Shown here piece by piece: positions 38,775 to 56,907 of a DNA stretch of 64,000 bases. The position numbers and the translations under genes were made by a program. The stretch spans positions 16,046-80,045 of IMG/VR virus record IMGVR_UViG_3300024054_000015, one strand, 5' to 3'. Positions within the stretch are counted from its first letter, which is position 1; each line of letters opens with the position of its first letter. This stretch comes from a virus. Below the pieces are notes generated by a model. It was not told where the DNA came from and made no database searches. It saw only the letters and a program-made list of their open reading frames with translations.

Positions 38775-39359
38775 GTGGAGACACCCTGGGAGCAGACTAT
38801 GAACGGATTGGTGTACGATCTGGAGATTGTCAAGGGTATCCCTTTAGGACATAAAGAAGAGGGTGTGGAGTACTGTGACGGATGGACAGACTATGCTAAC
38901 ATGGGCATCAGTGTTCTCTGTGCCTACGACTTCGTGAGCAAGTCTTTTAGGGTCTTCTGTCAGGACAACCTTCAGGAGTTCTTTGAGTTAGCAGCCCAAA
39001 GGGATCCATTGATTGGGTTCAACTCTGTAGGATTCGATAACAACGTCCTCTCATGCTTTGGTACTCTTCCAGAGGGTAAGGACTACTACGATATCCTTCA
39101 GGAGATCTATCGCACGGTTGGCAAAAGATTCAAGGGTAGTGGTCTTGATGCTATCTGTACTCTGAATGGGTTGGGTAGCAAGTCTGGAAATGGTGCTCTA
39201 GCTCCTGTGCAATGGCAGAGAGGGCAAATTGGTAGTGTCATTGATTACTGCTTGAGGGATGTAAGGCTTACGAGGGATCTCTTCGTCCTCAGTCAGAAGG
39301 CTATCATCAAGACTCCTAAGGGAAACCTCTCGTTGAGGAAGGTTGATGATGCTGATTAA
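38775..39359 (+). CDS. DEDD/RNase H-like 3'-5' exonuclease
   Basis: VYDLEI, IGFNSVGFD, LDAIC, DYCLRDV; alternative ATG 38799. Confidence 0.8.
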   Translation: METPWEQTMNGLVYDLEIVKGIPLGHKEEGVEYCDGWTDYANMGISVLCAYDFVSKSFRVFCQDNLQEFFELAAQRDPLIGFNSVGFDNNVLSCFGTLPEGKDYYDILQEIYRTVGKRFKGSGLDAICTLNGLGSKSGNGALAPVQWQRGQIGSVIDYCLRDVRLTRDLFVLSQKAIIKTPKGNLSLRKVDDAD

Positions 39360-39921
39360 CCCTTTCACTGGTCAAGTCTTGAATGCTAATCCAGAGGGGC
39401 ATAACCAGTATTGGAACCCTAATGGACCTTCTGCAGACTTCTCTCTGCCTCTGAAGCCCTCTATCTCTCCAGGAAGTCTATCGAGGGGGTTGGCTAAGAG
39501 AAGGTCTAGGGAGGCTATTCGCCTTCTTAAAGTTGCCTCTAGAGCTCCTGGCACAAGTCTTGATAAGTTCATGTCTAAAATGACTGGAGTTGACGCTGAT
39601 AGCCGAGTGGCTGAGGAAGCTAAGGATCAGCTAGAGAGACTTAGGAGTAGTAGAAAGCCCTCAAAACACGCTCTGGTTGCTAAGAAGCTCAGGGACATCT
39701 ACGAAAACGAGGAATTCCTCATGGTTGATGAGGCAGATGCCCTAAAGAGACTCTCCGGCGCAAATCAGAGAGCAGCAGATGCCTATGCCGTGGCTAAGAA
39801 GATTAGATCAAGGAGAAACGCCAGTAGTGGTCAATTCGTGAAGAAGAGTGGTGATTTGATTCCAGTTCAACCCTTCAATCAACCTTTCTGGACTCCTCGT
39901 GAGTACCCTGAACCTGACTAG
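39349..39921 (+). CDS. Putative internal head protein, NPFTG leader family #1
   Basis: MLINPFTGQVLN-ANPEGHNQY; basic helical body. Confidence 0.65.
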   Translation: MLINPFTGQVLNANPEGHNQYWNPNGPSADFSLPLKPSISPGSLSRGLAKRRSREAIRLLKVASRAPGTSLDKFMSKMTGVDADSRVAEEAKDQLERLRSSRKPSKHALVAKKLRDIYENEEFLMVDEADALKRLSGANQRAADAYAVAKKIRSRRNASSGQFVKKSGDLIPVQPFNQPFWTPREYPEPD

Positions 39922-39933
39922 TGGAGACCTATC

Positions 39934-40167
39934 ATGACTGAAGGCTGGCAACAACGACTCATTGACGAAGCAGAGGACCTCGAGATCAGGATCAAGAAGC
40001 TCTCTGAGTTTGCTAACACCGAGGAGTTCAAGAGCCTTGACAGTACTCATCGTGATTTCGTGAGGATTCAGCAGTATCACATGGGGTGGTATCTCTGGGC
40101 TCTGAAGGCTCGAATCAAGAGACTTTCTGAGCCTGCTCCTCCGGTTATCATTCCGTTGAATAAATAA
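39934..40167 (+). CDS. Small coiled-coil phage protein (crAss001_48-like)
   Basis: WQQRLIDEAEDL..IKKL..F...QQYHM..Y..LKARI. Confidence 0.6.
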   Translation: MTEGWQQRLIDEAEDLEIRIKKLSEFANTEEFKSLDSTHRDFVRIQQYHMGWYLWALKARIKRLSEPAPPVIIPLNK

Positions 40168-40191
40168 TGTCTAGTGGTGGATGGGACAGAA

Positions 40192-40851
40192 ATGCCATCT
40201 GTGATTCTCAAGAAACGTGATCTTGATTCCTTGAATGATATGGAATTGAGATTCGTCAAGGCTTTGATCGCTGACGATCTTTGGAGACCTGTTCAGGCAG
40301 CTAGGACTGTTGGATATAAGAGCCCTTCATTAGCTGCTACGAGGTTGATGAAGAAGCCCGTAGTAGCAGCAGCCTTAGGAAGAGAACAACGTCGCAGATT
40401 AGAACGTCTTCAGTTGAAAGCTGATGAAGTTCTGCACATGCTCGCTACTGGACTCTTCTTCAATCCACTTTCACTCTTTAAGCCTTCTGCTGATGGAAAG
40501 TGGGTCGTAGAGGACTTGGACAAAGTCCCTGCGGAAATAGGACGTTGTGTAGAGGAAGTCAAGTGTCGTACTGTGGACAGTATGGACGACGATGGGAACG
40601 TGACTTCCACAACGTACTTTGAACTGAAGATGATGTCCAAGACGAAGCTCTTAGAGCTTGCGATGAAACACTGCGGAGTTGACGGCACGCAGAAGATAGA
40701 GCATACGGGCAATCTGGGTCTACAGATCGGCCTCAGCAATGGGATCAATGGGCTGCTGATGGCCATTGAGAACACACGCTCTTCCCAAGTGGTCGATGGT
40801 ACAGTGTTGGAGAAAGAGGTAACAGATGTTACTAATCAATCCGCTGACTAG
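40192..40851 (+). CDS. terS: Terminase small subunit
   Basis: RFVKALI..QAARTVGYKS..ATRLMKKP HTH; KTKLLELAMKH; position. Confidence 0.8.
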   Translation: MPSVILKKRDLDSLNDMELRFVKALIADDLWRPVQAARTVGYKSPSLAATRLMKKPVVAAALGREQRRRLERLQLKADEVLHMLATGLFFNPLSLFKPSADGKWVVEDLDKVPAEIGRCVEEVKCRTVDSMDDDGNVTSTTYFELKMMSKTKLLELAMKHCGVDGTQKIEHTGNLGLQIGLSNGINGLLMAIENTRSSQVVDGTVLEKEVTDVTNQSAD

Positions 40852-41299
40852 GCAAGTTCTAAACCACATGCAAGGAAGGCATGATCAGTCAGGACATGGA
40901 CAGGAGGCTTTGCCAGACAAGTTCTACAAGAAGAGAAGGGATTCTACTTCCAGTAGGTTGGCCAAGAGAATCTTTGAGGGACCATTTGACAGTTTTGAAG
41001 AGGCTGCTGCTCACTCGTACGTGTTGGATGACCTGGACACTAGGAAGTCTTCCCTGGATAAAGGCTTTCTGATGGGAGCTCATGGGAAAGCAATCCCTGT
41101 CACCAAAGGCTCTTATCTTCAGGAGGATATCACAGGAGGAAATGAGGGAGACATTCACGACTACAACAAGAGTGGAGATCGTATCCCTATAAGGCATAGG
41201 ATTGTCCCGGTAAGGAGTGTGGCAAAGCTCCGACCCAAAAGAGTGAACATGATGGCAGACGTGATAGCAGAACTTAGGCAGAGAAGGGGATTAGACTGA
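40826..41299 (+). CDS. Putative internal head protein, NPFTG leader family #2
   Basis: MLLINPLTRQVLN-HMQGRHDQSGHG. Confidence 0.6.
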   Translation: MLLINPLTRQVLNHMQGRHDQSGHGQEALPDKFYKKRRDSTSSRLAKRIFEGPFDSFEEAAAHSYVLDDLDTRKSSLDKGFLMGAHGKAIPVTKGSYLQEDITGGNEGDIHDYNKSGDRIPIRHRIVPVRSVAKLRPKRVNMMADVIAELRQRRGLD

Positions 41300-41688
41300 T
41301 GTCCAACGAGATACAGGTAACGATTCAGCTTAGTTGTGCTAAGGGTGAGTTCTATCAGCCTGCCCTTGGAACGCCTCAATCAGTAGACCAGAACGGTCTA
41401 GGTGGAGGCAATCCAGGGTTCATTAACGTAGGGGCCTCTGAGGAGGACGTTAGCTTGGGAGACCTTACGACTCCAGGCTATTGCTACATCAAGAACCTTG
41501 GCCCTTTGACTGGCACGGCTCAGCCTGTGATCACCTTTGGTCCTAAGAGTGGCGGAGCTATGGTCGGCTTCTGTAGTCTAAAGACTGGCGAGGAAGCGTG
41601 CTTTAGGCTCACGGACACAACTCCCACGCTGCGCATTGTCAGCGATATCGCGAATACAGGCGTGCAGATAGTCATCCTGGAGGATTAG
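41299..41688 (+). CDS. Hypothetical beta-rich (virion?) protein
   Basis: Tiled ORF. Confidence 0.55.
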   Translation: MSNEIQVTIQLSCAKGEFYQPALGTPQSVDQNGLGGGNPGFINVGASEEDVSLGDLTTPGYCYIKNLGPLTGTAQPVITFGPKSGGAMVGFCSLKTGEEACFRLTDTTPTLRIVSDIANTGVQIVILED

Positions 41689-41689
41689 C

Positions 41690-41896
41690 ATGGCTACGAT
41701 TCATCTAGCAGGTCCAATAGTAACTGTAGACAGCAGAGTCGTTCAGCGTTGTGCTGTCTGTGGACAGAAGCTAGTGGACTTGGACGCTTTCGAGCCAGGA
41801 AAGCCTGTAGTGGAAGAGGGCTGTCAGTTGAAGACAGTGCAGAACGTAGATATGTACCATAGCTCCGACCTGTGCGTGACCTTGGTGGAGAAATGA
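41690..41896 (+). CDS. Small Cys/His protein
   Basis: H..CAVCG..C. Confidence 0.5.
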   Translation: MATIHLAGPIVTVDSRVVQRCAVCGQKLVDLDAFEPGKPVVEEGCQLKTVQNVDMYHSSDLCVTLVEK

Positions 41897-42378
41897 CCAT
41901 GCTCATCAATCCGTTTACAGGTCAGGTACTCAACGTCAATCCACAGGGATACAATCAGTACACTGGAAAGGGTCCGGAGTCTAACAGGAAGAGACTTCAG
42001 CAGATCGCTGGAGATGATGTCCGTATTGAGTACAAGATCCCAGAGGCCTACGAGAAGAGCGTGAGGCTGTCTGGAGACTACTTTCCTCCAGAGGTAGACT
42101 GGGACACTGAAGAGGTAACGAAGCCAGCGACTATCTTTGTTTCTCCAGGCAGATACGAAGGTGCTATAGCTGCCCATGAGATAGGGCATCATAAGCTAGG
42201 TCACACGCAGGATGTGGAATACGAAGATGATGCAGAGAGCCGTGAAAGAGATGCCTGGCGATATGCTCTTAAGAACAGAAAGAGTATGGCAGTCTCTAAG
42301 AGGAAACTGTTCCGCCTTATGAGGACTGCTGAGGTTCTGGCTAAGAAGTCTAGAGGAACTTTCGGACCAGCTAAGTGA
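41893..42378 (+). CDS. Putative internal head protein, NPFTG leader family #3, with HExxH metallopeptidase motif
   Basis: MLINPFTGQVLN-VNPQGYNQY; AAHEIGHHKLGH...ERDAWRYA. Confidence 0.65.
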   Translation: MTMLINPFTGQVLNVNPQGYNQYTGKGPESNRKRLQQIAGDDVRIEYKIPEAYEKSVRLSGDYFPPEVDWDTEEVTKPATIFVSPGRYEGAIAAHEIGHHKLGHTQDVEYEDDAESRERDAWRYALKNRKSMAVSKRKLFRLMRTAEVLAKKSRGTFGPAK

Positions 42379-43976
42379 TCAACTCCGAAGCTGACCTACT
42401 CTCTGATCCCTTTAACTTTCTTGCTCTGTGTTGGCCAGACATCAAGCTGACCAAGCCGCAAGCCAAGATCGTACATAGCATTGTCCACAATCACACTACT
42501 GTCGTGCCTGCTGGCAACGATCAAGGCAAGGACTTTATTGCAGCCTTTATCTGCGTCTGGTTCTTCTGCTCTCGTAGCCCTTGCAAGATTGTGACCCATT
42601 CGGTAGATCAGCCTCAGCTTAAAGGCGTTCTCTGGGGCGAAATGAAGAGGTTTATTCAGACCTCGAGATATCCTCTGCCGCTGAACGTGCGTGAGGATAT
42701 GTTCATGCAGTTCGTGCGTCCTGATGGTACAGCCGATCCCTTGAGCTACCTCATTGGCCGTGTCACACGTAAGGGTGAGGGATTGCTGGGTCATCATATC
42801 GCTAACACAGAGAGCGATAGACTGCCCGATGGCTCTATGCTTCCTCGTACGCTGTTCGTAGCTGATGAAGCCAGCGGTATTGACGACGAGGCATGGGAGA
42901 AGGTGGACACCTGGAGTCATCGTAAGCTCGCTATCGGCAATCCCTATCCCACTACGAACTTCTTCTATAAGGCCACGAAGGCCGGAGATATCCCGCACCC
43001 CAGGCTCAAGGGACGTTTCCTTCAGAAGGTTATCCACATCGATTGCGATGATAGTCCGCACGTAGAGCGGGCTAAGTCGATGATGGACATTGGTCTAGAC
43101 CCTGATGACAAGGTCTTGATCCCAGGCATCCTCAGTTGGCAGGAATACGAGCGACGTCTCAAGGTCTGGGATGAGATGCGGCAGTGCATCGGCCTACATG
43201 GGAAGTTCTATGAAGGTCGTGAAGTCAAGCTATTTCCTCCCAACTGGCTAGACCGTGCTGAGGAAGTCGCTGAGAGGTTGCCGAAGGATCGCATAGGCAA
43301 AGCGATGGGAGTGGACGCTGCTGAAGGTGGCGATAACTCCGTGTGGTGCATAGTGGACGAGTTGGGCTTGATCTACATGGAGGCCCATAAGACAAATGAC
43401 ACAAATGATATTCCTGGACTTTCCATTGCCATCGGGAAGCGTTTCGGTGTTGCTCCTGAGCGTTGGGTATTCGATCGTGGGGGTGGCGGCAAGCAACATG
43501 CCGATCGGTTACGAGCAATGGGGTATGAGTGTGCTTCCATCGGTTTTGGTGAGGGTGTGGTAGATCCACAAGCCTGGAAGCGTACTGCGGACTATATCCC
43601 GAAGAAAGAAGTGCGGGAGGCTACAGAAGAGAGGTACATCTACAAGAACCGTAGAGCCGAGATGTACGGCACGCTTAGGCTTGCATTAGATCCGACTGTG
43701 TTGCAAAATGGCTTCGGGCTACCAAAAGAGTTGATTCGGGTGAAACGGTTGGACGGTGGACCTTCCCTCAGAGATCAGTTAGAGATACTACCGCTGCTCT
43801 ACGATCCTGAGGGAAGGCTCTACTTGCCGCCTAAGCAGAAGAAGAATGCGGACGACAAAACAGTCACGATCAAAGATATGCTGGGCGACTATAGCCCAGA
43901 CGAGGCAGACGCGCTTGTGCTCGCCTGCTATGGAATGACCTTTAAGAGTCCTCCAGTCATCAGGAGTATGATATGA
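42375..43976 (+). CDS. terL: Terminase large subunit
   Basis: PAGNDQGKDF Walker A-like, FVADEASG Walker B, IGNP, GVDAAEGGDNSV nuclease, SPDEADAL. Confidence 0.9.
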   Translation: MINSEADLLSDPFNFLALCWPDIKLTKPQAKIVHSIVHNHTTVVPAGNDQGKDFIAAFICVWFFCSRSPCKIVTHSVDQPQLKGVLWGEMKRFIQTSRYPLPLNVREDMFMQFVRPDGTADPLSYLIGRVTRKGEGLLGHHIANTESDRLPDGSMLPRTLFVADEASGIDDEAWEKVDTWSHRKLAIGNPYPTTNFFYKATKAGDIPHPRLKGRFLQKVIHIDCDDSPHVERAKSMMDIGLDPDDKVLIPGILSWQEYERRLKVWDEMRQCIGLHGKFYEGREVKLFPPNWLDRAEEVAERLPKDRIGKAMGVDAAEGGDNSVWCIVDELGLIYMEAHKTNDTNDIPGLSIAIGKRFGVAPERWVFDRGGGGKQHADRLRAMGYECASIGFGEGVVDPQAWKRTADYIPKKEVREATEERYIYKNRRAEMYGTLRLALDPTVLQNGFGLPKELIRVKRLDGGPSLRDQLEILPLLYDPEGRLYLPPKQKKNADDKTVTIKDMLGDYSPDEADALVLACYGMTFKSPPVIRSMI

Positions 43977-44575
43977 GCAAAGAGCCAATCGTGAATCCGT
44001 TTACTGGAGAAGTGGTGGCGAACTTCAGTCTTAGGGGAATCGGAGAGGTATTTGACCTGGGAAGGAAGGCCCAGAAGCTCGGTCAGATGGCAGGAACTAA
44101 GTCAGGTGCGGTTGAGTCCAGGTGGGCTAAACTTCGCGGTAAAGACGCTGGTCTCTCTAGGAGAGCTTCCAGAAGGATCTACCGAGCCGGTGCTGGAACC
44201 CAGAAGGCCATAGAAGCCGCGAAGAAGCACTCCTTCAAGACGGGAGTGGCGACTGGTGCGGTTGCTGGTGCTGCCTCTACAGGAGCCGCCATGAAGTACT
44301 CCAAGTCCAAGAAGAAGCAGATGGCTCACAACATCCTCGGCATGGCTCTGGGAAAGGTCAGGAACCCTCTGCAAGATGCCCTCACCAAACCCTTCCGCAA
44401 GAAGAAGACCACTGTCGGTGGCGTGCTGAAGGGCGGACTCACAGGCGTTAGGAACGAGAGCCATCTTGGCCTCATTACGCCTTCCAAGGCTAGGAAGCGT
44501 AAGCTCATCTCTTCTGCAGAGCAAGATGCCAAGAAGAGGGGATTGGTCCTCAAGCCCGTCGGGAGCTTCAGATGA
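43973..44575 (+). CDS. Putative internal head protein, NPFTG leader family #4 (basic, Gly/Ala-rich)
   Basis: IVNPFTGEVVAN; internal MAHN and GVRN sites. Confidence 0.6.
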   Translation: MSKEPIVNPFTGEVVANFSLRGIGEVFDLGRKAQKLGQMAGTKSGAVESRWAKLRGKDAGLSRRASRRIYRAGAGTQKAIEAAKKHSFKTGVATGAVAGAASTGAAMKYSKSKKKQMAHNILGMALGKVRNPLQDALTKPFRKKKTTVGGVLKGGLTGVRNESHLGLITPSKARKRKLISSAEQDAKKRGLVLKPVGSFR

Positions 44576-44760
44576 CTCTTGGACAAATCGCTTACGAAGC
44601 CTACTGCAAGTTCAGTGACAACAAGTCTCTGGTCTCTGGGCAAGAGCTACCAAGCTGGGGAAACCTCAACAGTCGCATTAAGGCTGCTTGGGAAGCATGT
44701 GCTAAAGAGGTTGGCAGGTATGTGATGACAGAATTGGCAGACCTTGCCAAAGGAGACTAG
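44572..44760 (+). CDS. Small hypothetical protein
   Basis: LGQIAYEAY...AAWEA. Confidence 0.55.
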   Translation: MTLGQIAYEAYCKFSDNKSLVSGQELPSWGNLNSRIKAAWEACAKEVGRYVMTELADLAKGD

Positions 44761-44985
44761 GTGGACAAGCCTAAGACCATTGCTGACCTGGGCGACAACA
44801 CCGAACGTGATAAGCCCATTATCGGCAAGTCCATGATAGACCATGGACCTAAGTCGGTAAGTCGTCGCATTGAGGAAGCCCAGAAGCGGCATGAGGAAGA
44901 GCAGAAGCTGCTAGAGGCTGGCGGCTATGACTATGGCGGCACAGAGGCTTTCGAACGAGCCATGAGGAACGTGGGGAGATGGTGA
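44761..44985 (+). CDS. Small hypothetical protein
   Basis: Tiled ORF with GGAG RBS. Confidence 0.5.
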   Translation: MDKPKTIADLGDNTERDKPIIGKSMIDHGPKSVSRRIEEAQKRHEEEQKLLEAGGYDYGGTEAFERAMRNVGRW

Positions 44986-45515
44986 TGATTCTAGTCAATC
45001 CATTCACTGGCCAAGTGCTTATCAACGCCAACCCTAGAGGCGACAATCAGTACATCAATCCCGATGGGCCTAGCCAGAAGCCTGTTAGAACAGCGAAGCA
45101 TCTCGTTAAACGTCTGACTGCTGGCGTGCTAGGACCTGTCTCGGCAGATCGTGTTGCTGGATTTGCACTGCCTGACGACAGTCTAGTGGGAGGCCTGGGC
45201 AAGATGCATGAGGATCTGGTGCGAGAGGATCCTGAGAAGTTCGGAATGGACAGAGGAGACATGCCAAGAGATCCAGTGGCCAAGGCTATCTCCAAGGGAG
45301 CCATACGCTTTCGTGGAGTTTCCCTAGAGCTCGACTCTAGCAGACACACTCCAGGGAAGATTGGCATGATGATCTCCAGCGGTAAGTTGCCCTCTACTAC
45401 CGAAGGTCATGTCTACATTGACTCTGCAGACTTCAATGGTGCAGCCCATGTGGATGAGTTGCTGATGGCCAAGTCTTGGAGACATCTAGCTTACGGGAAG
45501 AAAAGACTAAGATAA
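44985..45515 (+). CDS. Putative internal head protein, NPFTG leader family #5
   Basis: MILVNPFTGQVLIN-ANPRGDNQY. Confidence 0.65.
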   Translation: MILVNPFTGQVLINANPRGDNQYINPDGPSQKPVRTAKHLVKRLTAGVLGPVSADRVAGFALPDDSLVGGLGKMHEDLVREDPEKFGMDRGDMPRDPVAKAISKGAIRFRGVSLELDSSRHTPGKIGMMISSGKLPSTTEGHVYIDSADFNGAAHVDELLMAKSWRHLAYGKKRLR

Positions 45516-45525
45516 GGAAATAAGA

Positions 45526-48144
45526 ATGCCCACAGCAGAACGCAAGCGCCTGGCCTTGGAGCAGATGGCCAACTCCAAAGACTTCGTCATGAACGCTGAG
45601 TTCCAGGCCAAGTTCTTAGACCTCGTGCAAAACGAGTTCCTTAGTCGTGGAGCTTTCATTCAACGCTGGATGGACCCACGTCGGGACTACAACCGTGAGT
45701 GCGGCTATCCCGAGACGTATGAGATCACCAGTGAGAAGTGGCAGGACTACTACGAACGTCATCCCATTGCTGCCCGCGTTGTGGAGATCATGCCTAGCGA
45801 GTGCTGGCAGATAACGCCAGATCTGTACGAGGTTGATGACCCCAACGTCAACACTCCGTTCGAACAGGGCTTTAAGGACTTGGCTGGGGACCTGCGTGGA
45901 GTCCAGTCGTACTACAAGCCTGAGGAAGAGGTCGTGCATCCGCTGTGGGAGTACTGCCGACGGCTAGACATTCTCTCAGGAATTGGTCAGTTCGGTGTGA
46001 TGCTGCTAGGGTACGACGATGGCATTTCCCTGAACCAACCTGTAGAGGGTTGGCAAGAGCCAGAGGTAGGGAACATCACCTGGAACCAAGAGGCACTGCC
46101 TTTCCTCAGAGAGTTGTCCAAGCACTTCCATATCACCGCTAACGGTGAGCTAATATGGAATGCACCAACTCCCGATGAAGAAGAGCAGTTGAAGAAAAAG
46201 TCCAAGTCTGTGCCTGAGGCAACTAACGGCAAGAAGCCCAAGGAGAAGAAGGTCACCGACAAGGAGAACATGCAGAGCTCAGAAGGCTATCTGCCTCCAG
46301 AGCCTACAGGGAAGTCCATGCCTAGTCCTGCGGCCTTCGGTAATGTCAACCCGCAGCAGGGAAAGTATCACGATCCCATGGACCCAGAGGCTTTGAAGGA
46401 CATCCAGCCTCAAGGGCCAGAGCAGCCAGAGTTTGGGGACTTTACTACTGAGGACCAACGCCAACAGCCAGGAATGCAGACCGCTCCCACAGGCAGACGT
46501 AGGCTGATCTATGTGCGAGTGTTCCCCGAGGCGTTAGTGCAGATCATGCGATACGAGCAGAACATGGCGAGTCCACGCTTTGGACAGCCTACCATGTATC
46601 GCATCACGCTCAATGACCCCATGCAGAACCAGACGGGAGTGGGACTGCCTCTAAGCACCATTGAGGTCCACTACTCGCGGGTTATTCACGCTGCTGATTT
46701 GGGAGCTAATGCCGGATCTAGTGAAATCTTCGCTCCTCCTCGCATGAGGCCGGTGCTGAACAACCTCATCGATCTACAGAAGATCTATGGAGCTTGCGGG
46801 GAAGGCTACTGGAAGAACGCTTTCGCAACGCTGGCAGCAGAGACACATCCTCAACTCGGTGGAGATGTTACTCTGGACGTAGAAGCCATGCGGGAGCAGA
46901 TGAAGAAGTGGAGAGATAGCCTGGATCGTGTGCTGGCAGCTACGGGCGTCACTTGGAGGACTATCAGCCCGCAACTGATTGATCCCAATAGCTACGTGCA
47001 GAATCACCTGACTGCCATTTGCATCAAGCTCGGCTGTCCGTTGCGAGTGTTCATGGGCAGCGAACAAGGAGTGTTGGCCGCGAGCCAGGACTCGTACTCT
47101 TGGGGATTGCGAGTTCAAGAGCGTCGCAAGAACTACCTGACTCCTCGGCTAATCGTGCCGTTGATTGACAGACTCATCACCGTAGGCGTGCTGCCTGCTC
47201 CGCAAGAGTCGTACATGGTCAACTGGAACGATGAGCAGAAGCTGACTCCTCAGGAGCAGGCGAGCATCGGTGGAGCAATCACTGGAGCGATGGCAACCTA
47301 CATCAGTGGCCAAGTTGACCAACTGATTGAGCCTGTGACCTGGATGACAGAGGTTCTGGGCTGGAATAGGGAGAAGGCTCAGTCTGTGGTAGATGCCACG
47401 ATGGAGCATATCCTCAAGCAGCAAGAGCAGCAGGCGATGCAGGGGCAGCAGATGATTGACCCCATGACGGGTCAGCCCATGCAGCAGGACGAGATGGGAC
47501 AGTTCATTGATCCCAATACGGGCGAGCCTGCTCCGACAGATGAGATGGGCAAGCCGATGGTGATGGATCCCAATACTGGACAACCGATGCCCGCTCAGCC
47601 TCAGTCGCCACAAGAGAGCCAAGGCCCGCTAGGGGCAGAGGCTTCAGAGGCCGCTCAGGTTAGCCAAGAGATGGATCCTGGAGTTGAGGCACCAGAAGAG
47701 CAGATGGAACCCGAGGAAGAAGAGTTGCCCACAGACCCCGACTCTGGGTTGATGATCGACGAGGAAGCAGGACTAGCTCTTGATCCAGAGACAGGTGACG
47801 TGTACGACATAGAGACTGGAGAAGTAGTAGGGAACGTGAACGATGATGAGCAATATGCTGACGAGTTTGATCAGGAGCAACCGGATCAAGAAGATGGTTC
47901 TGAACTGGAAACTGAAGAACCCGAGGACGGCTTTGAAGACATGGAAGGTGATCAAGAGCTTGGTCAAGAAGACCCGATGGAAGAAGCCCAGGAGCCAGAA
48001 CATCAGATAGATCCAGAAACGGGTCGCATCGTTAACCCTGAGAATGGCTATCAGCTTGATCAGGAAACGGGCGACATCTACACACCTGAAGGCGAGTTGT
48101 GGGGAAATATCAATGACGAGGATGACCAGGAAGAGATGGAATAG
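45526..48144 (+). CDS. Portal protein (DUF1073-like) with internal insertion and long acidic repeat tail
   Basis: YYERHPIAARVVE, SPRFGQPTMY, VHYSRVIH, PLRVFMG; position after terL. Confidence 0.85.
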   Translation: MPTAERKRLALEQMANSKDFVMNAEFQAKFLDLVQNEFLSRGAFIQRWMDPRRDYNRECGYPETYEITSEKWQDYYERHPIAARVVEIMPSECWQITPDLYEVDDPNVNTPFEQGFKDLAGDLRGVQSYYKPEEEVVHPLWEYCRRLDILSGIGQFGVMLLGYDDGISLNQPVEGWQEPEVGNITWNQEALPFLRELSKHFHITANGELIWNAPTPDEEEQLKKKSKSVPEATNGKKPKEKKVTDKENMQSSEGYLPPEPTGKSMPSPAAFGNVNPQQGKYHDPMDPEALKDIQPQGPEQPEFGDFTTEDQRQQPGMQTAPTGRRRLIYVRVFPEALVQIMRYEQNMASPRFGQPTMYRITLNDPMQNQTGVGLPLSTIEVHYSRVIHAADLGANAGSSEIFAPPRMRPVLNNLIDLQKIYGACGEGYWKNAFATLAAETHPQLGGDVTLDVEAMREQMKKWRDSLDRVLAATGVTWRTISPQLIDPNSYVQNHLTAICIKLGCPLRVFMGSEQGVLAASQDSYSWGLRVQERRKNYLTPRLIVPLIDRLITVGVLPAPQESYMVNWNDEQKLTPQEQASIGGAITGAMATYISGQVDQLIEPVTWMTEVLGWNREKAQSVVDATMEHILKQQEQQAMQGQQMIDPMTGQPMQQDEMGQFIDPNTGEPAPTDEMGKPMVMDPNTGQPMPAQPQSPQESQGPLGAEASEAAQVSQEMDPGVEAPEEQMEPEEEELPTDPDSGLMIDEEAGLALDPETGDVYDIETGEVVGNVNDDEQYADEFDQEQPDQEDGSELETEEPEDGFEDMEGDQELGQEDPMEEAQEPEHQIDPETGRIVNPENGYQLDQETGDIYTPEGELWGNINDEDDQEEME

Positions 48145-48354: not shown

Positions 48355-49347
48355 ATGAGCATCCTTCGCGTAGACCCCACTCGCACTACTAGACTTCGTC
48401 GTCAGTTCACTAGTGCGATTAACGTGCGGTTCACCATGTTCAAGAAGGACCTATTGCATCTGTTTCAGCATGGAATGCTGGGCATGGTCCGCCCTACCCT
48501 TAACGCCGAGTGGACCTTTCCCACAGAGCATAAGCTGCAAGAGCTCAAGCGATGGCTTCAGTTTAAGACTGGTCAGCTATTCCTAAAGAACTATATGGAG
48601 GACTCTGCACAGTCTTGGGTTGGGGAGTACATACAGCAGTCGTACCAGCGAGGCTTGAAGAGATCTTGGGGCGACTGGCGTAGGCCGACTCAGGTTATGA
48701 CCATGCCTGGAGACGTAGGAGCTATCTTCCAGAAGGGTGGCGAAGCAGAGTTTATGCGGCAGTCTTTTGGTGGACCTATTCCTGTAGAGAAGGTAAGACT
48801 ACTCTCAACACGCACCTACAGTGACTTGGCTAACGTCACAGAGCAGATGTCCGCACAGATCTCTCGAACTCTGCTGGACGGTGCTGTTAGTGGACTCAAT
48901 CCCCGCAAGGTCGCCAAGCAACTGTCTAAGCTCGTAGACATGAGTAAGGGTCGGGCCTACATGGTCGCCCAGACAGAGACGATCAGGAGCTTTAACGAGG
49001 GAGCCTTAGATGGATTGGAGAACCTGGGAGCTAAGGCTGTAGGCGTGATGGTGGAATGGTCCGTGTCAGGGCTGGGCTACACCGAAAAGGGCTATCCTTC
49101 ACCCTGCAAGAAGTGTGCCCCTTTGGCGGGACTGGTGCTGACCGTTGATGAGGCTAGAGGGATGCTGCCTCGGCATCCGCGTTGTCGGTGCAGTTTCATA
49201 CCCGCGAACGTAGGAGAAAAGACCGCCAAGCAAGTCCGTGATGCTGAACGCATACGAGCGGCCATTGCCCGTTCTGCTAGTGGTGACACCCGTTGGATTG
49301 GAGCAAGTAAGACTATCTCTTCAGAAAGACCAGTGGAGGCCTCATGA
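48355..49347 (+). CDS. MuF/SPP1 gp7-like head morphogenesis protein
   Basis: DPTRTT, RAYMVAQTETIR, CKKC..LPRHPRCRC. Confidence 0.85.
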   Translation: MSILRVDPTRTTRLRRQFTSAINVRFTMFKKDLLHLFQHGMLGMVRPTLNAEWTFPTEHKLQELKRWLQFKTGQLFLKNYMEDSAQSWVGEYIQQSYQRGLKRSWGDWRRPTQVMTMPGDVGAIFQKGGEAEFMRQSFGGPIPVEKVRLLSTRTYSDLANVTEQMSAQISRTLLDGAVSGLNPRKVAKQLSKLVDMSKGRAYMVAQTETIRSFNEGALDGLENLGAKAVGVMVEWSVSGLGYTEKGYPSPCKKCAPLAGLVLTVDEARGMLPRHPRCRCSFIPANVGEKTAKQVRDAERIRAAIARSASGDTRWIGASKTISSERPVEAS

Positions 49348-49667: not shown

Positions 49668-52600
49668 ATGAACATTCCACGAGAAATGTCTCCAAAGTCG
49701 TACAGGCTGGTTTCGTCAATTCTCCACAATGAATGGAGTGATGAAGCCCGGAAGAAGTCTGCCGAGTCTAGGAAGCGCAAAGCCCAACAGCGTGGATCTT
49801 GGTTAGGGTCTACAGCGAAGGCTGTGGGCAAGGCTGGGCTGATCGCCGGTGGAGTAGTCGCTGGAGGACTCCTTGGGGGAAGGATAGCTCCTAGAGTCTT
49901 CGGTAAGGGAAGACTAGCTAGGGTTGGAGAGAACCTCACCGGAAAGGTCGTCTACACCGTTCCGCCTAAGAACTTGGAAGGATTCGAGAAGTGGTCTATA
50001 GGGGCTGCAATTCCAGTCGGTAGGAAGCGGAGTCTAGGCTCGGTACTGGAAGAACAGGGCAAAAGAGCTGGACTCAGAGGAAGAGTTGCCAGAAGACTCA
50101 GTGCCATAGAGAAGTGGTTCGGGATCCCTGAACGACATTACGGTGTTGGCACTGACAAGGGTCACGTGACTCACTTCTCTCCGCATGGAGTAAAGAAGCA
50201 CACCAAAGGTGAGTTCGGGGCCTACTGGTCTGAAAGAATGTCAGATCGCGAGCCTCGTAACATCTGGGTTGTGGACGAGGGTCTGGTAAGCGGAAAGAAG
50301 GGAAGTGTAAGGAAGGCAGAGCTCGCTGCGGTTAAGTCCAGGCTTGCAGCTAGGAGAAACTGGAGAGGCAGAGAACTTAGATGCCTTGGCAAGAAGAACT
50401 GCGAGACCTTCGCTAGAGAGATCTCCAGCGGCAGAAAGCAGTACAAGAGCCGATTGGCTCTTACAGGTGCAGCCGGAATCGCAGGTGGTGGAACCACTGG
50501 TGGAGCGGTCACTGGAGCCGCTACCCTACTCGGCGGGAAGAAAAAGAAGGACTCCAAGAGAAGGATGGTCAGAAACGTCCTACAAGTGATCAACGGTGGT
50601 CCAGGCTCAGGCTTCCGTGGGCACAAGGGAAGACCGGGTCAAAGGGGTGGGTCAGCTCCGGAAGGTGGCGGAATGCTGGGATCGACTACTTATAGACCAG
50701 CTTCGCTTCCATTGTCAGAGTCTCCTCAGGCTCGAGCCAAGCGAATTAAGCTGATCTACACTAAGGCCTCTAGACTGGCCGATGTGTACGGGGATCATGC
50801 GAACAAGCTCGAGCAGAAGAGGCGCAGCAAGCTCCTTCCGCTGAACAGGCGAGAACTGATCGATCTGTTGGAAGCCCACAAGAACGCTGCTGACAACTTC
50901 CGGGCGAGTGCCGAGCAGTCTACCTTGGTCAAGAGATTCACTCCCGAGCAGCAACTCCAACGCTTGGAGCAGGCGAGTCGTCACGAGGAGATGGCAGCTA
51001 AATACCTCAAGAGGCTAAACCGTGAGATCCCAGGTAAGGACTTCGTTAAGGCTGTGGGCAAGACATTCCTCGGAGAACTGGTTGGGGATCTTCCTTCAGA
51101 GATTGGTCGCATGGGTGCGGACATCACTAGGGAATCGATCCGAGGCGGCTTCAAGTCTTTGGTCGGTAAGAGCCCTTCGCTGGGCAAGTTTGGAGAGGGT
51201 GTCTTTAAGGGTGGAAAGGCCAAGGCCGAGGAGTACAAGAATTCAATCCTAGAAGGCGGAAGGATTAGGGACAAGTCCAAAATGCTGAGAGCCGCCATGG
51301 AAGAGGTCAAGAGGCTTCAAGCTATCGACAAGAACATCAAGAAGCAACTCCATGCTCTTGGTGGTCGGGTCAGTCGAGGCAAGCCTAAGTCAGCTTCCGA
51401 GAAGCCGAAGCAATTCAGTGCAGACGCTATTCGGAAAGCTCTAATCGAGGCCGCTAATCAGAAGCTGGCTGATGCCGAAGAGAGGGTTCTGGCCTCGAAT
51501 GAGTTCACAGCCCTGGTGTCTAACCTTGAAGGTCAGGTGCGTCGGGAAACGCTGCACGACCGCGAGTATCTAGTGGCACCCCTAACGATGATCGTTCCAG
51601 GCGTCTTGGCAGGAAGCAAAGGCCCACTTCTATACCCAGAAGAGGAAGTTGCTAAGAACCCGAGCGCCTGGAACGGTATGCCCATCGTGGTCAATCACCC
51701 GATGAAAGACGGGATGCCGGTAGAGGCTCGCAACCCTGCCATCCTCAATCAGTACCAGATCGGTACTGTCTTCAACACCAAGTACAACGGCAAGCTCGTA
51801 GCTGAGGGCTGGTTCGACGTGGACCGCACTCGCAAGACCAACATCGGCATCTACGAGCAGTTGGTCAACAACCGGCCGATTGAGTTGAGTACGGGTCTGT
51901 ACACGGACAACGAGTCCTCTGAGGGAACCTGGAACGGTCGCCCTTATAGCTACGTGGCTCGCAACTATCGCCCGGATCATCTGGCGATCTTGCTGGGCTC
52001 CAAAGGTGCTTGCAGCATTAAGGACGGCTGTGGAGTGCTGATCAACGAAACTGATCCCGTAACCAACATCGTCCAGAAGACTGGTGGAGGCTACAAGCTC
52101 GTCAGCCATAAGGGCAAGAACCTCGGCACGGCCAAGACTAAGGCTGGTATCCTCAAGCGTGAGCGTCAGGTGGAGTACTTCAAGCACGTGAGAAACGAAG
52201 TGCGAGAAGTGATAGACCTCATCAACAACGGTCCCTATCGTGCTGCCGCAGGAAGCTTGTGGAAGGCTGTCAAGTTAGGTGGTGGTCAGGCCATTAAGGA
52301 CGTGCTGGGAGTTGCCAAGAAGACATCTAAGACTAGAAGGTTTATCAAGAAGTTCCCGAAGACTTCTACAGCCGTAGCTGCCGGTGGAATCGGTTATGCT
52401 GCTGGAAAGCGTAAGAGGAGCCAGACGAACAATGCCCTCAAGGCTGGGATCGTAAACATACCCTTCATCAGCAAGAACCGTGCCAAGGCTCGGCGTCAAG
52501 TCGCTGGCTTTGCTGGAGGGGCGGCTGCTGGAGCCTATGGCACAGTCAAGGGTGCTGCTATAGGAACCGCTGTAGGTGGACCAGTTGGAGGGATTATAGG

Positions 52601-53153
52601 AGGGGCTGCTGGTGGTGCGACTGGAGCCTGGGGCGCTCGCAAGATTGCCAAGAGACTTGGCGGTAGCAGTGCTGAGTCCGGTGCAGACCTGGGAGGCCTA
52701 GCAGGTACGTTCGCTCCCATAGGTTCTGGGGCTGCTAGAGCCGCTGGAGCAGCCGTTAAAGCTTCCAGAACCAAAAGGATTATCGGCGGTGCTGGAAGAT
52801 TGGGTGCAGATTATGCAGCTTATGAGGGAACTACTAGAGGTCTGGATAAGCTGGCTTCAAAGTTCAGCAGACGTAGGAAACGCTCTGTGGTAAGTAATGC
52901 CTGGACTGAGGAAGCCCGCCGCAAGTCGCTAGAGACCCGTAGGCGTCATGCTGTAGGTGGAACTGATATTGGATTGGGGATAGCTGGCGGCATGGCTGTG
53001 GGAAAGATTGGGTCGAAACTGGTAGAGCCTGAAATCGACGCAGCGGTGGACAGAATCCGACAGGCTATCATCAGGTCTTTTAAGGATGTGAAGAGGAATC
53101 CGGGTCTTGGTCGTAGAGTGATCAGGCTTCTCAAGTCAATCAGGAGAGTCTAA
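49668..53153 (+). CDS. Head polyprotein: LRAT-like domain + DUF2213 prohead protease + multiple basic/Gly-zipper modules
   Basis: Protease ~51510-52045 (WNGMPIVVNHP, IELSTGLY, PDHLAIL, GACS); HYG...NCETFA LRAT motif; repeated hydrophobic-X-N junctions. Confidence 0.8.
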   Translation: MNIPREMSPKSYRLVSSILHNEWSDEARKKSAESRKRKAQQRGSWLGSTAKAVGKAGLIAGGVVAGGLLGGRIAPRVFGKGRLARVGENLTGKVVYTVPPKNLEGFEKWSIGAAIPVGRKRSLGSVLEEQGKRAGLRGRVARRLSAIEKWFGIPERHYGVGTDKGHVTHFSPHGVKKHTKGEFGAYWSERMSDREPRNIWVVDEGLVSGKKGSVRKAELAAVKSRLAARRNWRGRELRCLGKKNCETFAREISSGRKQYKSRLALTGAAGIAGGGTTGGAVTGAATLLGGKKKKDSKRRMVRNVLQVINGGPGSGFRGHKGRPGQRGGSAPEGGGMLGSTTYRPASLPLSESPQARAKRIKLIYTKASRLADVYGDHANKLEQKRRSKLLPLNRRELIDLLEAHKNAADNFRASAEQSTLVKRFTPEQQLQRLEQASRHEEMAAKYLKRLNREIPGKDFVKAVGKTFLGELVGDLPSEIGRMGADITRESIRGGFKSLVGKSPSLGKFGEGVFKGGKAKAEEYKNSILEGGRIRDKSKMLRAAMEEVKRLQAIDKNIKKQLHALGGRVSRGKPKSASEKPKQFSADAIRKALIEAANQKLADAEERVLASNEFTALVSNLEGQVRRETLHDREYLVAPLTMIVPGVLAGSKGPLLYPEEEVAKNPSAWNGMPIVVNHPMKDGMPVEARNPAILNQYQIGTVFNTKYNGKLVAEGWFDVDRTRKTNIGIYEQLVNNRPIELSTGLYTDNESSEGTWNGRPYSYVARNYRPDHLAILLGSKGACSIKDGCGVLINETDPVTNIVQKTGGGYKLVSHKGKNLGTAKTKAGILKRERQVEYFKHVRNEVREVIDLINNGPYRAAAGSLWKAVKLGGGQAIKDVLGVAKKTSKTRRFIKKFPKTSTAVAAGGIGYAAGKRKRSQTNNALKAGIVNIPFISKNRAKARRQVAGFAGGAAAGAYGTVKGAAIGTAVGGPVGGIIGGAAGGATGAWGARKIAKRLGGSSAESGADLGGLAGTFAPIGSGAARAAGAAVKASRTKRIIGGAGRLGADYAAYEGTTRGLDKLASKFSRRRKRSVVSNAWTEEARRKSLETRRRHAVGGTDIGLGIAGGMAVGKIGSKLVEPEIDAAVDRIRQAIIRSFKDVKRNPGLGRRVIRLLKSIRRV

Positions 53154-53504: not shown

Positions 53505-53517
53505 CGGGAGAAGCACG

Positions 53518-54306: not shown

Positions 54307-54368
54307 CCAACAATTCACAGACGACCATTGTTGGCTCGTCTAAACGTTCGTTTACAAGGAGAGCCTAA

Positions 54369-55653: not shown

Positions 55654-56907
55654 ATGTTTGTTGATTCCTTTGTTCAGAATGAGGGCTGGTCCGGTGATTC
55701 GCTGGGCAGCGCCCTCGAACTCGTAAGGGACCGTGGGACCATTTGGGATCCAGGTCTCATGCGACCGTACCTGGACAGTAAGGGCCGAGCCTGTGTGACA
55801 GTGAACACAGGTCGCAAGGCCCCTCGCAGGGACGAGCGCGGTGGTGGATTCATTACCAACGAGCATGGGATGCCCAAGATGTTTCCCATTCTCGAGAAGC
55901 AACTGATCTCCGAGCGTGCCGCTCGAGGACTGGCAGTTCCAACGGTCAACGCAGGCAACCTGCTCACGAAGGAAGCCTGGGTGATGTTGGACAACGCGGT
56001 CCTGGAAGCTGCACGGAATCGCCTGCGTGCTTGGGCAGATCTTCGCGCTGCCAACACGTATGGTGGTTTCGACGGGATGGCCAATCCCATCCTGGAGTTC
56101 GAACGAGTGACGGACGTGGGTGAGGCCGTAGAAGACATGGACGGCATGACCGAGGCCCGCTCGTTTGCTCCGAAGTTTGACTTGCAAGGAATGCCCTTGC
56201 CGATCACGCACAGTGACTTCTTCCTGTCGGCTCGCTTCTTGGCCGTCAGCAAGAACAAGTCACAGCCCATGGACACCATGCGTGCGGAGATGGCTGGACG
56301 CCGTATTGGTGAGCGTATTGAGCAAGTCACTATCGGTTCAGCAACAGGGATGCTCTATGGTGAGGCCGCTGGCAGTCGCTACACTTATGCGAACGACAGT
56401 CAGGTCTACGGCTATATGACCCATCCGGATCGGTTGACGTCCAGTGGACTCACTACTCCTACTGGATCCAACGGTACGACCATTTTGGGTGATTGGCTGT
56501 CTATTCGTGAAACGATGTACACGAACAAGTTCTTTGGCCCGTACATCGTGTACACGTCCACGGATTGGGATCAGTATCTGGACAACCTGTTCAGCACGAC
56601 TGAGCCGAGTGCGGGCACGTTGCGCAAGCGATTGCTGGAGATCTCTGATATCCAAGACATTCGTCGCTTGGATTATCTCACGAGTGCCAGCTATCCCTTC
56701 ACAACGATCTGGGTCCAAATGACTCCAGAAACAGCACGGGCTGTCAACGGTATGGAGATCACCACTGTTCAGTGGCCCTCCATGGGTGGCATGCGCTTGA
56801 ACTTCAAGGTCATGTGCATCCAGGTGCCGCAGATTCGCTCTCGCTTCACTGGTCCCAACACGACCACGGCGAAAGCTGGTGTCTGCATTGGTACTCACAC
56901 TTCGTAG
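55654..56907 (+). CDS. Major capsid protein (HK97 fold, linocin/encapsulin-like subgroup)
   Basis: VN-AGNLLTKEAWVMLDNAV, PLPITHSDF, FKVMCIQVPQIR; strong AAGGAGG RBS; downstream terminator. Confidence 0.85.
   Translation: MFVDSFVQNEGWSGDSLGSALELVRDRGTIWDPGLMRPYLDSKGRACVTVNTGRKAPRRDERGGGFITNEHGMPKMFPILEKQLISERAARGLAVPTVNAGNLLTKEAWVMLDNAVLEAARNRLRAWADLRAANTYGGFDGMANPILEFERVTDVGEAVEDMDGMTEARSFAPKFDLQGMPLPITHSDFFLSARFLAVSKNKSQPMDTMRAEMAGRRIGERIEQVTIGSATGMLYGEAAGSRYTYANDSQVYGYMTHPDRLTSSGLTTPTGSNGTTILGDWLSIRETMYTNKFFGPYIVYTSTDWDQYLDNLFSTTEPSAGTLRKRLLEISDIQDIRRLDYLTSASYPFTTIWVQMTPETARAVNGMEITTVQWPSMGGMRLNFKVMCIQVPQIRSRFTGPNTTTAKAGVCIGTHTS

What the first reader, a model, noticed from the sequence alone, without database searches (positions are those of the whole stretch)
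39349..45515. Five unrelated genes share an N-terminal INPFTGQVLN leader: a candidate capsid-targeting signal
Seen: MLINPFTGQVLN (39349), MLLINPLTRQVLN (40826), MLINPFTGQVLN (41899), PIVNPFTGEVVAN (43973) and MILVNPFTGQVLIN (44985). Codons differ synonymously and the downstream bodies are unrelated. The genes are interleaved with terS, terL and portal. Known: T4 internal proteins use a short cleavable capsid-targeting sequence. Inference: a modular address tag, cleaved after the terminal Asn, that loads interchangeable cargo into the head for injection.
Basis: partly seen in the sequence, partly recalled or inferred. Interest (0 to 1): 0.9.

Follow-up and report, generated by a model that had tools for sequence, protein, structure and literature searches.

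The report
Shared capsid-address tag on phage proteins
Five unrelated small proteins in the head-assembly genes of an uncultured 80-kb phage start with the same 12-residue peptide, which most likely loads them into the virus head and is then cut off after a fixed asparagine; no experiment has tested this.

Summary
Five + strand genes (39349, 40826, 41899, 43973, 44985) start with h-h-N-P-F/L-T-x-x-h-h-N. The peptide is conserved but third codon positions are randomised. It occurs nowhere else in the 80-kb genome.

The tag is not private to this phage. Three close relatives carry it, and 72 distinct metagenomic proteins (44 unrelated body clusters) carry it, always at residues 1-5 or so.

The architecture has three parts: a tag ending in an invariant Asn, a short module (NPxGxNQY, or W-S/T-D/E-x-A-R), then a variable small basic body.

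In other phages the same Asn-plus-module junction links cargo bodies homologous to the tagged ones into a MuF polyprotein (P0060). It also joins a different zincin to a portal (L060/L061). The tag therefore appears to replace covalent fusion to a head protein.

The same hydrophobic-x-Asn joint brackets the DUF2213 prohead protease domain in 36 relatives. It also precedes the conserved core of the capsid protein in about 25.

Best reading (about 0.5): an address-and-cut tag like T4's capsid-targeting sequence, in a non-T4 lineage with a different predicted cutting rule. Packaging, cleavage and injection are all untested.

This scan has already reported analogous tags in T4-like and huge phages.

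The parts
39349..39921 (+). Tagged protein 1 (190 aa, pI 9.9). Tag MLINPFTGQVLN = 39349-39384, then the module ANPEGHNQYWNPNGPS, then an orphan basic body.
   Evidence: 26.9 bits. No Pfam or PHROG match. Body family P0007/P0010. pI.
40826..41299 (+). Tagged protein 2 (157 aa, pI 9.7). Tag MLLINPLTRQVLN = 40826-40864 (F to L and G to R variant), followed by a degenerate module HMQGRHDQ.
   Evidence: 22.4 bits. Body family with P0024, P0033 and P0046, which carry canonical tags.
41899..42378 (+). Tagged protein 3 (159 aa). Tag = 41899-41934, module VNPQGYNQY, body a minimal zincin-like metalloprotease (HEIGHH).
   Evidence: phrog_87 metallo-protease, E 5e-5. AF2 model pLDDT 75; the weak top Foldseek hits are all small zincins (abylysin 4jiu E 0.15, selecase). 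Homologues in L014 carry the same tag with a different module.
43973..44575 (+). Tagged protein 4 (200 aa, pI 11.4). Tag MSKEPIVNPFTGEVVAN = 43973-44023. Lys/Gly/Ala-rich body resembling segments of the 1161-aa polyprotein.
   Evidence: 17.6 bits. Low-complexity similarity to the polyprotein, E 2e-5.
44985..45515 (+). Tagged protein 5 (176 aa, pI 9.6). Tag MILVNPFTGQVLIN = 44985-45026, module ANPRGDNQYINPDGPS, then a globular alpha/beta body of unknown fold.
   Evidence: AF2: residues 1-52 have pLDDT below 55 and residues 55-176 above 83. No fold match. The body is homologous to an internal segment of the MuF polyprotein P0060, E 2e-10.
40174..40851 (+). Terminase small subunit.
   Evidence: PF03592 E 4e-10; phrog_51.
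42375..43976 (+). Terminase large subunit.
   Evidence: phrog_2 E 1.5e-14.
45526..48144 (+). Portal protein (872 aa). It has a ~230-aa acidic C-terminal tail (about 47455-48144) with five h-D-P-x-T-G repeats, the last reading IDPETGRIVN|PENGYQ.
   Evidence: PF06381 and phrog_146. Repeats counted. Such tails occur only in the tag-bearing clade.
48355..49347 (+). MuF-like head morphogenesis protein. The joint RPTLN50|A51EW (48502-48507) is the point where the orthologue P0060 carries two inserted cargo modules.
   Evidence: PF04233 and phrog_758. 40% identity to P0060 residues 389-663. Coordinates.
49668..53153 (+). 1161-aa polyprotein with an embedded DUF2213 prohead protease (residues 620-793 = 51525-52046). 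Clade-invariant Asn joints at N21, N309, N619, N793 and N1077.
   Evidence: PF09979; phrog_760 and phrog_530. Alignment A6. 36-member alignment A7 with invariant His, Ser and Asp-His. Coordinates.
55654..56907 (+). Major capsid protein (417 aa). It starts MFVDSFVQN9|EGW. The conserved joint VPTVN99|A100GNLL (55948-55953) lies just before the HK97-fold core.
   Evidence: phrog_771 match from residue 97. Encapsulin EncA match from residue 100. P-h-x-N|A-T-x-L-R-K is conserved in about 25 relatives.

Best explanation
The peptide h-h-N-P-F-T-G-Q-h-h-N is a portable N-terminal address tag of one lineage of uncultured tailed phages.

Proposed mechanism:
1. The tag brings small, mostly basic, otherwise unrelated proteins into the assembling procapsid. 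It does the job that covalent fusion to MuF or to the portal does in related phages.
2. It ends at an invariant Asn. This is the same hydrophobic-x-Asn joint that separates modules in this lineage's head proteins: both ends of the protease domain, the capsid-protein N-terminal extension, the MuF insertion point and the polyprotein modules.
3. The DUF2213 Ser/His prohead protease most likely cuts after that Asn.
4. Cutting releases cargo that begins with a short conserved module (A-N-P-x-G-x-N-Q-Y or A-W-T/S-x-x-A-R...). The cargo stays in the head and may leave with the DNA.

Shown: the tag, its modularity, its strong purifying selection, its exclusively N-terminal position, the recurrence of the Asn joint, and the equivalence of tagged and MuF-fused cargo bodies.

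Inferred: encapsidation (about 0.6), cleavage after Asn (about 0.4 overall), the identity of the protease, and ejection into the host.
For: 1. Five tags in one head module, with the peptide conserved and third codon positions randomised.
2. Close relatives carry the tag on other genes between terS and MuF. L013 has one, L014 three and L016 one. About 85 loci with portals at or below 49% identity lack it.
3. A word-based and an exhaustive profile search found 35 and 64 proteins. All true hits start at residues 1-5 or so. Pooled, they are 72 distinct proteins in 44 BLASTP body clusters, with median length 158 aa and median pI 9.3.
4. Within one body family the first 30 residues are 71-86% identical while the body is 21-48% identical.
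5. Homologous zincin bodies carry the same tag with either of two different post-Asn modules, so the architecture has three parts.
6. P0060 is a MuF orthologue (40% identity over 278 aa). It has three internal ...T-T/V-N|ANPEGHNQY junctions. Its insert 1 is homologous to the tagged proteins P0069 (E 2e-38) and P0020. Its insert 2 is homologous to the family of the 44985 protein (E 2e-10).
7. In L060/L061 the portal is joined through ...LAGN|ANPEGCNQH to a C-terminal HELGH zincin.
8. In 36 divergent DUF2213 domains, h-x-h-x-N precedes the domain and DG[CA]G-h-h-x-N ends it, followed by variable sequence.
9. The capsid proteins of about 25 relatives, and of cultured Sf11 / Vi II-E1, keep h-x-N|A-T before the core.
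10. After the tag's Asn the residue is Ala in 26 of 36 cases, as at the capsid-protein joint.
11. AF2 models give the tag and module as a low-confidence flexible N-terminal arm, separate from a confident body.
12. In Sf11 the first ~39 residues of the capsid protein are absent from virions (PMC12724387).
Against: - There are no virion, proteomic or expression data for this phage or any tag-bearing relative.
- h-x-N is too short to be statistically diagnostic on its own. The conserved Asn residues could be structural, for example strand caps or turns.
- In Sf11, tryptic coverage from residue 40 implies that a peptide spanning N45|A46 was seen. The best-conserved capsid joint is therefore not evidently the cut site there. 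N33|A34 would fit, but that is a guess.
- No cleavage specificity is known for any DUF2213 protease, and no sequence relative of it is in the PDB.
- In many relatives the protease ORF begins only 6 residues before its 'N-side' Asn. That makes a cut there look pointless and suggests the Asn is part of the fold.
- The receptor for the tag is unknown.
Confidence: 0.5

Rival explanations
1. The tag is an uncleaved docking peptide. A small beta-hairpin (strand, N-P-F-T-G turn, strand) stays on the protein and tethers it to a head component. Candidates are the portal's acidic tail with its h-D-P-x-T-G-x-h-h repeats, or MuF.
For: AF2 places short paired strand residues on either side of NPFTG, at low confidence. 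Portal tails with five to six DPxTG repeats occur only in the tag-bearing clade. The last portal repeat, IDPETGRIVN|PENGYQ, mirrors INPFTGQVLN|ANPEGHNQY. The cargo is basic and the tail acidic.
Against: The tag profile does not detect the portal repeats; the best non-tag score is 4.0 bits. The co-occurrence rests on one clade, that is, one evolutionary event. The invariant Asn, the variable spacing before it, and its reuse as an internal joint between modules are better explained by a processing site.
Confidence: 0.2
2. The tag is a substrate or propeptide signal for the tag-bearing zincin metalloprotease, or a latency propeptide for effectors. It would have no role in head loading. The zincin, not the DUF2213 protease, would cut the Asn joints of cargo.
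For: Zincin bodies form the largest tagged family: 13 sequences, one of them the window's copy counted twice. They occur in the window, L014 and L016, and fused to the portal in L060/L061. Iyer et al. 2017 (PMC5512222) predicted that zincin-like peptidases process phage polyvalent proteins.
Against: Distant relatives that keep the Asn joints in the capsid protein and protease have no homologue of this zincin. The MuF and portal fusions tie the cargo to head proteins. All tagged genes lie in the head module.
Confidence: 0.12
3. The Asn joints cleave themselves through Asn cyclisation, the asparagine peptide lyase mechanism. This is how nodavirus coat protein cuts at Asn|Ala and how intein C-termini cleave. 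No protease would read the tag.
For: The scissile-looking residue is always Asn and is usually followed by Ala. One polyprotein joint is Asn-Gly, which is prone to succinimide formation. This rests on established knowledge of MEROPS N-families, recalled and not tested here.
Against: Known Asn lyases need a specific folded catalytic environment. Here the joint sits in at least four unrelated sequence contexts and in regions predicted to be flexible. A conserved Ser/His protease is encoded alongside.
Confidence: 0.05
4. The tag is an evolutionary leftover of gene fission from MuF or portal polyproteins, or a shared translation-initiation region. It would have no present function as a peptide.
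For: The tagged bodies have fused counterparts.
Against: Second codon positions are 100% identical and third positions 32%. The tag is 71-86% identical where the bodies are 21-48%. There are 44 body clusters. Upstream DNA is not conserved.
Confidence: 0.03

Closest known systems
Capsid-targeting sequence (CTS) of phage T4 internal proteins IPI-III and Alt (about 10 N-terminal residues, removed by the gp21 prohead protease after L/I-x-E)
   Same: A short N-terminal peptide on small, basic, otherwise unrelated proteins. It ends in a motif that recurs at the maturation sites of the phage's own head proteins. The genes lie with the head genes.
   Different: There is no sequence similarity. The prohead protease belongs to a different family (DUF2213, not T4 gp21/S77). 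The predicted P1 residue is Asn, not Glu. A second conserved module follows the joint. Function is shown for T4 and only inferred here.
Polyvalent proteins and MuF- or portal-fused effectors of phages (Iyer et al. 2017, PMC5512222)
   Same: Cargo domains, including zincin-like metallopeptidases, are delivered through head proteins. Relatives P0060 (MuF) and L060/L061 (portal) are such fusions and use the same Asn-module junction.
   Different: In the window the cargo proteins are separate genes that carry a 12-residue tag instead of a covalent link. The tag and the Asn joint are not described in that paper.
Propeptide-bearing ejection and inner-body proteins of phiKZ/SPN3US-type giant phages, trimmed by the prohead protease (PMC10052503, PMC7411985)
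   Same: Many head-internal proteins are processed at one short motif shared with the capsid protein.
   Different: Those propeptides are long and diverse, not one portable 12-mer. The motif ends in Glu (from established knowledge). The protease is T4-like.
Encapsulin cargo-loading peptides
   Same: A short terminal peptide addresses unrelated cargo to the interior of an HK97-fold shell. The capsid-protein core here weakly matches encapsulin EncA.
   Different: Encapsulin peptides are usually C-terminal, are not cleaved and have an unrelated sequence. No protease is involved.
Shared N-terminal leaders reported earlier by this scan in T4-like and huge phages
   Same: The same phenomenon: one tag on many unrelated late proteins.
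   Different: Those lie in T4-type or jumbo lineages. This one is in a MuF/DUF2213 lineage distantly related to Sf11/TW1-type siphophages. Direct fused counterparts support the head-loading reading here.

Membership tests
T4-type capsid-targeting sequence | Short N-terminal peptide shared by otherwise unrelated small head-module proteins | tested here: met
   Five in the window and 72 distinct proteins in 44 body clusters overall, always at residues 1-5 or so.
T4-type capsid-targeting sequence | The tag ends in the cleavage motif of the phage's own prohead protease, which is also present at capsid and scaffold maturation sites | tested here: inconclusive
   The h-x-N joint recurs at the protease domain ends, before the capsid-protein core, in MuF and in the polyprotein. 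No cleavage site of a DUF2213 protease has been mapped, and the Sf11 data are ambiguous.
T4-type capsid-targeting sequence | Sequence related to MKTYQEFIAE, and a gp21-type (S77) protease | tested here: not met
   The tag is h-h-NPFTGQ-h-h-N. The protease is PF09979 DUF2213. This is an analogue, not a member.
T4-type capsid-targeting sequence | Tag necessary and sufficient for encapsidation | not testable with these tools
Polyvalent / MuF- or portal-fused effector proteins | Several effector domains in one polypeptide with a MuF or portal domain | tested here: not met
   The window's five are single-body proteins of 157-200 aa. The feature is met by the relatives P0060 and L060/L061.
Polyvalent / MuF- or portal-fused effector proteins | Associated zincin-like metallopeptidase | tested here: met
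   The 41899 protein has HEIGHH, matches phrog_87, and its weak fold hits are all small zincins.
Sec/Tat/lipoprotein signal peptides | Basic n-region plus a hydrophobic core of 7-15 residues (or a twin-Arg motif or lipobox) | tested here: not met
   Read directly from the sequence: 12 residues, no basic residue, the hydrophobic run interrupted by N-P-F-T-G-Q, no RR and no lipobox Cys.
Sortase sorting signals (LPxTG / NPxTG) | C-terminal motif followed by a membrane span and a basic tail | tested here: not met
   NPFTG lies at residues 4-8 of the protein and no membrane span follows it.
DUF2213 (PF09979) prohead protease, as the proposed processing enzyme | Pfam domain match above the gathering score, with conserved Ser/His residues | tested here: met
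   24.4 bits against a cut-off of 22. His78, Ser142 and Asp171-His172 are invariant in 36 relatives. Catalytic roles are inferred.

The most novel reading that the evidence does not exclude
This lineage would use a sequence-readable head-maturation code: a portable 12-residue address (h-h-NPFTGQ-h-h-N) plus an Asn-specific cut by DUF2213-type prohead proteases. The same Asn joint would separate modules in the capsid protein, protease, MuF, portal fusions and cargo. Packaged (and possibly injected) proteins could then be predicted from sequence alone, and foreign proteins could be loaded into heads of a large non-T4 group. That group includes cultured Sf11/Vi II-E1/TW1-type siphophages.
Probability: 0.3. 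Interest if true: 0.8.

Novelty: new variant of a known kind. Interest (0 to 1): 0.62.

Why it matters
The experimentally established model for capsid-targeting tags on packaged phage proteins is phage T4, where the tag is already used to load foreign proteins into heads.

A second, unrelated tag in a MuF/DUF2213 lineage would show that the 'address plus cut' solution evolved more than once. Here that reading is backed by natural tag-versus-fusion counterparts.

It would also give a way to list the packaged proteins of uncultured phages. Those found here are 44 families, almost all without any annotation.

It points to an unmapped specificity for a widespread prohead protease family. That specificity can be tested in cultured phages such as Sf11.

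Tried and rejected
- **Exact-pattern scans.** INPFTGQV in IMG/VR gave 8 hits, all internal and therefore chance. NPFTGQVLNA gave 0 hits in IMG/VR and 0 in GTDB genomes.
- **Host.** The portal profile against genomes found only two distant MAG prophages, so the host is unknown.
- **Docking test.** No binding test exists.
- **Portal repeats.** The tag profile does not pick up the portal DPxTG repeats. The resemblance stays a pattern-level lead.
- **Other shared leaders.** A de novo search in about 90 related loci found no other shared N-terminal leader.
- **Body of the 44985 protein.**
  - No Pfam or PHROG match.
  - Best Foldseek E-value 0.33.
  - Best VIA Z-score 4.2.
  - Protein-atlas scores below 0.8.
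- **Pfam and PHROG scans of 36 tagged proteins.** These returned only two phrog_87 (metallo-protease) matches and one weak DUF2203 hit.
- **Protease in the PDB.** There is no sequence relative, either with a single sequence or with the profile.
- **Phage T1.** It was examined as a possible experimental anchor, but its capsid protein is of another type.
- **Literature.** No paper in the searchable library contains NPFTG or GHNQY in a phage context. DUF2213 papers give no cleavage data.
- **Readings rejected from the sequence.** A signal peptide, a sortase signal and a 2A-like skipping site do not fit.
Full report
**Observation.** They start at 39349, 40826, 41899, 43973 and 44985.
- A profile built from the tag scores them at 17.6-26.9 bits. 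The next best hit in all six frames of the window scores 4.0 bits.
- The remaining 16 kb of the genome has no copy.
- Over the nine shared codons, pairwise identity is 0.72, 1.00 and 0.32 at codon positions 1, 2 and 3. The DNA upstream is only 31% identical.
- These are therefore old, independently evolving genes whose peptide is held constant. They are not a DNA repeat or a recent duplication.
- The bodies show no BLASTP similarity to each other.
- One correction: three of the five share a second module, A/V-N-P-x-G-x-N-Q-Y, directly after the terminal Asn.

**Setting.** The window is bases 16046-80045 of an 80,045-bp IMG/VR virus record rated complete.
- The tagged genes are interleaved with terS, terL and the portal.
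- They are followed by a MuF-like protein, a 1161-aa polyprotein with an embedded DUF2213 prohead protease, scaffold-like Gly-rich proteins, a decoration protein and an HK97-type capsid protein.
- The nearest cultured phages share only about 27% portal identity. The host is unknown.

**Spread.** Relatives were fetched through terL and the portal.
- Only the close clade (portal at or above about 59% identity) has the tag. L013 has one tagged gene, L014 three and L016 one, all between terS and MuF.
- About 85 more distant loci have none, and no other shared leader was found in them.
- A profile of ten tag fragments found 35 proteins by the word-indexed search and 64 by the exhaustive search of 1.84 billion representatives.
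- Two of the 64 are exceptions: a spurious repeat protein, and P0060 (see below). Every other match begins at residue 1-5 of its protein.
- Pooled, there are 72 distinct tagged proteins in 44 BLASTP body clusters, with median length 158 aa and median pI 9.3.
- Almost none has a Pfam or PHROG match. The exceptions are two PHROG metallo-protease (phrog_87) matches and one weak Pfam DUF2203 hit.

**Anatomy.** Alignment of the tags gives invariant N4, P5, T7 and N12, with F6 nearly invariant. One to three residues of variable spacing precede the last Asn.
- The residue after that Asn is Ala in 26 of 36 cases.
- Then comes one of a few short modules: NPxGxNQ[YH] (55 proteins), W-S/T-D/E-x-A-R plus a basic helix (12), FSECERD (3) or other (7).
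- Homologous zincin bodies carry the same tag with either of the first two modules. Tag, module and body are therefore three separable parts.
- Within the family of the 44985 protein, the first 30 residues are 71-86% identical while the body is 21-48% identical.
- AF2 models of the 44985 and 41899 proteins give a confident body. The N-terminal arm has low confidence, with at most a hairpin-like pairing around NPFTG.

**Tagged and fused forms of the same cargo.** This is the strongest evidence for head loading.
- P0060 is an 878-aa orthologue of the window's MuF protein (40% identity over 278 aa).
- It contains three internal ...T-T/V-N|ANPEGHNQYWNPD junctions.
- Its first insert is homologous to the bodies of the tagged proteins P0069 (42% identity, E 2e-38) and P0020.
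- Its second insert is homologous to the body family of the window's 44985 protein (E 2e-10).
- The inserts sit exactly where the window's MuF reads RPTLN50|A51EW.
- In L060/L061 the portal is joined through ...LAGN|ANPEGCNQH to a C-terminal HExxH zincin.
- MuF and the portal are head-internal proteins. Iyer et al. (PMC5512222) argued that domains fused to them are packaged and delivered.
- So bodies homologous to the tagged ones enter the head by covalent fusion in some phages. In this clade they carry the 12-residue tag instead. This supports an address function by homology of context, but it is not a direct test.

**The Asn joint.** The joint recurs in several head proteins.
- In 36 divergent DUF2213 domains (alignment A7), His78, Ser142 and Asp171-His172 are invariant.
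- h-x-h-x-N precedes the domain, and DG[CA]G-h-h-x-N ends it before variable sequence.
- In the clade's polyproteins, N21, N309, N619, N793 and N1077 are invariant joints between conserved and variable parts.
- The capsid proteins of about 25 relatives keep P-h-x-N|A-T-x-L-R-K just before the fold core, while the upstream part varies. In the window this is VPTVN99|A100, and the weak encapsulin match starts at residue 100.
- The scaffold-like proteins and the capsid protein also begin with a short strand ending in Asn.
- The tag's ...QVLN|A therefore looks like one more instance of a lineage-wide joint. This is what one expects if the prohead protease cuts after Asn.

**Caveats on the joint.**
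- h-x-N is too short to prove anything by counting.
- In many relatives the protease ORF starts only six residues before 'its' Asn. That Asn may simply be part of the fold.

**Experimental anchor.** The motif extends to cultured phages.
- Salmonella phage Vi II-E1 and Shigella phage Sf11 have a DUF2213 protein ending ...GVGIFATN|.
- Their coat protein reads ...KVFVN33|AENALAKKYALN45|ATALVTK.
- For Sf11 the cryo-EM model starts at residue 46, and tryptic virion spectra cover residues 40-356. [quoted passage not shown]
- This shows loss of the N-terminus in a related system.
- However, coverage from residue 40 implies that a peptide across N45|A46 was seen. That site is not supported. N33|A34 would fit but is a guess.

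**Mechanism and odds.** My reading is an address-and-cut tag.
- The tag brings cargo into the procapsid (about 0.6).
- It is removed after Asn, most likely by the DUF2213 protease (about 0.4 overall).
- The basic cargo then stays with the DNA.
- Ejection into the host is a further, untested step.

**Rivals.**
- An uncleaved docking hairpin, possibly binding the portal's acidic tail (0.2). The tail's DPxTG repeats occur only in this clade, but the tag profile does not detect them.
- Processing by the tagged zincin rather than the serine protease (0.12). The zincin is absent from distant relatives that keep the joints.
- Self-cleavage at Asn (0.05).
- A functionless remnant (0.03, contradicted).

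**Comparison and novelty.** It works like the T4 capsid-targeting sequence, but it is not a member of that system.
- The sequence and the protease family differ, and so does the predicted P1 residue.
- It is the unfused counterpart of polyvalent MuF and portal fusions.
- I found no paper describing the tag or the modules.
- This scan has already reported analogous tags in T4-like and huge phages, so the phenomenon itself is not new.
- What is new is the lineage, the predicted Asn rule and the natural fused counterparts.

Noticed in passing
L028:12844-14898 (MuF of a close relative): The MuF orthologue is 684 aa instead of about 330 and carries an intein splicing domain (PF14890, E 1e-6) right after the MuF domain. 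This would be an intein in a head morphogenesis gene.
   Followed up: no
window 26898-26985 (+): ARAGORN calls an 88-nt tRNA-like gene with an unassignable four-base anticodon (caag). It could be a frameshift-suppressor-like or intron-containing tRNA, or a false call.
   Followed up: no
window 47455-48144 (portal C-terminal tail): A ~230-residue, very acidic, Q/P/M-rich tail with five h-D-P-x-T-G repeats and a weak OCRE-domain match (E 2e-4). Tails like this occur only in the tag-bearing clade.
   Followed up: partly
window 50592-50660 (polyprotein residues 309-331): After N309 comes GGPGSG-x-x-GHKG-x-PG-x-RGGS, invariant in the clade. L033 has ...VMVN|GGPGSG directly after its protease domain. 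It is a third recurrent post-Asn module of unknown role.
   Followed up: partly
window 53154-55082: Scaffold-like Gly/Ala/Lys-rich proteins begin with, and internally repeat, a unit T-V-T-I-N|x-x-E-Q-Q-R-h-E. The acidic 237-aa protein starts MARMTLN|QAERRE. This is a second family of strand-plus-Asn N-termini in the head module.
   Followed up: partly
L023:16912 and L023:17715: One distant relative encodes two DUF2213 protease-like paralogues side by side.
   Followed up: no
window 44572-44985: Two small ORFs (62 and 74 aa) between terL and the portal are conserved in L013 and L014 at the same place. They have no family match, and their function in the head module is unknown.
   Followed up: no
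P0060 residues 665-878: The third, C-terminal cargo of the MuF polyprotein has no Pfam match and no tagged counterpart among the proteins collected.
   Followed up: partly
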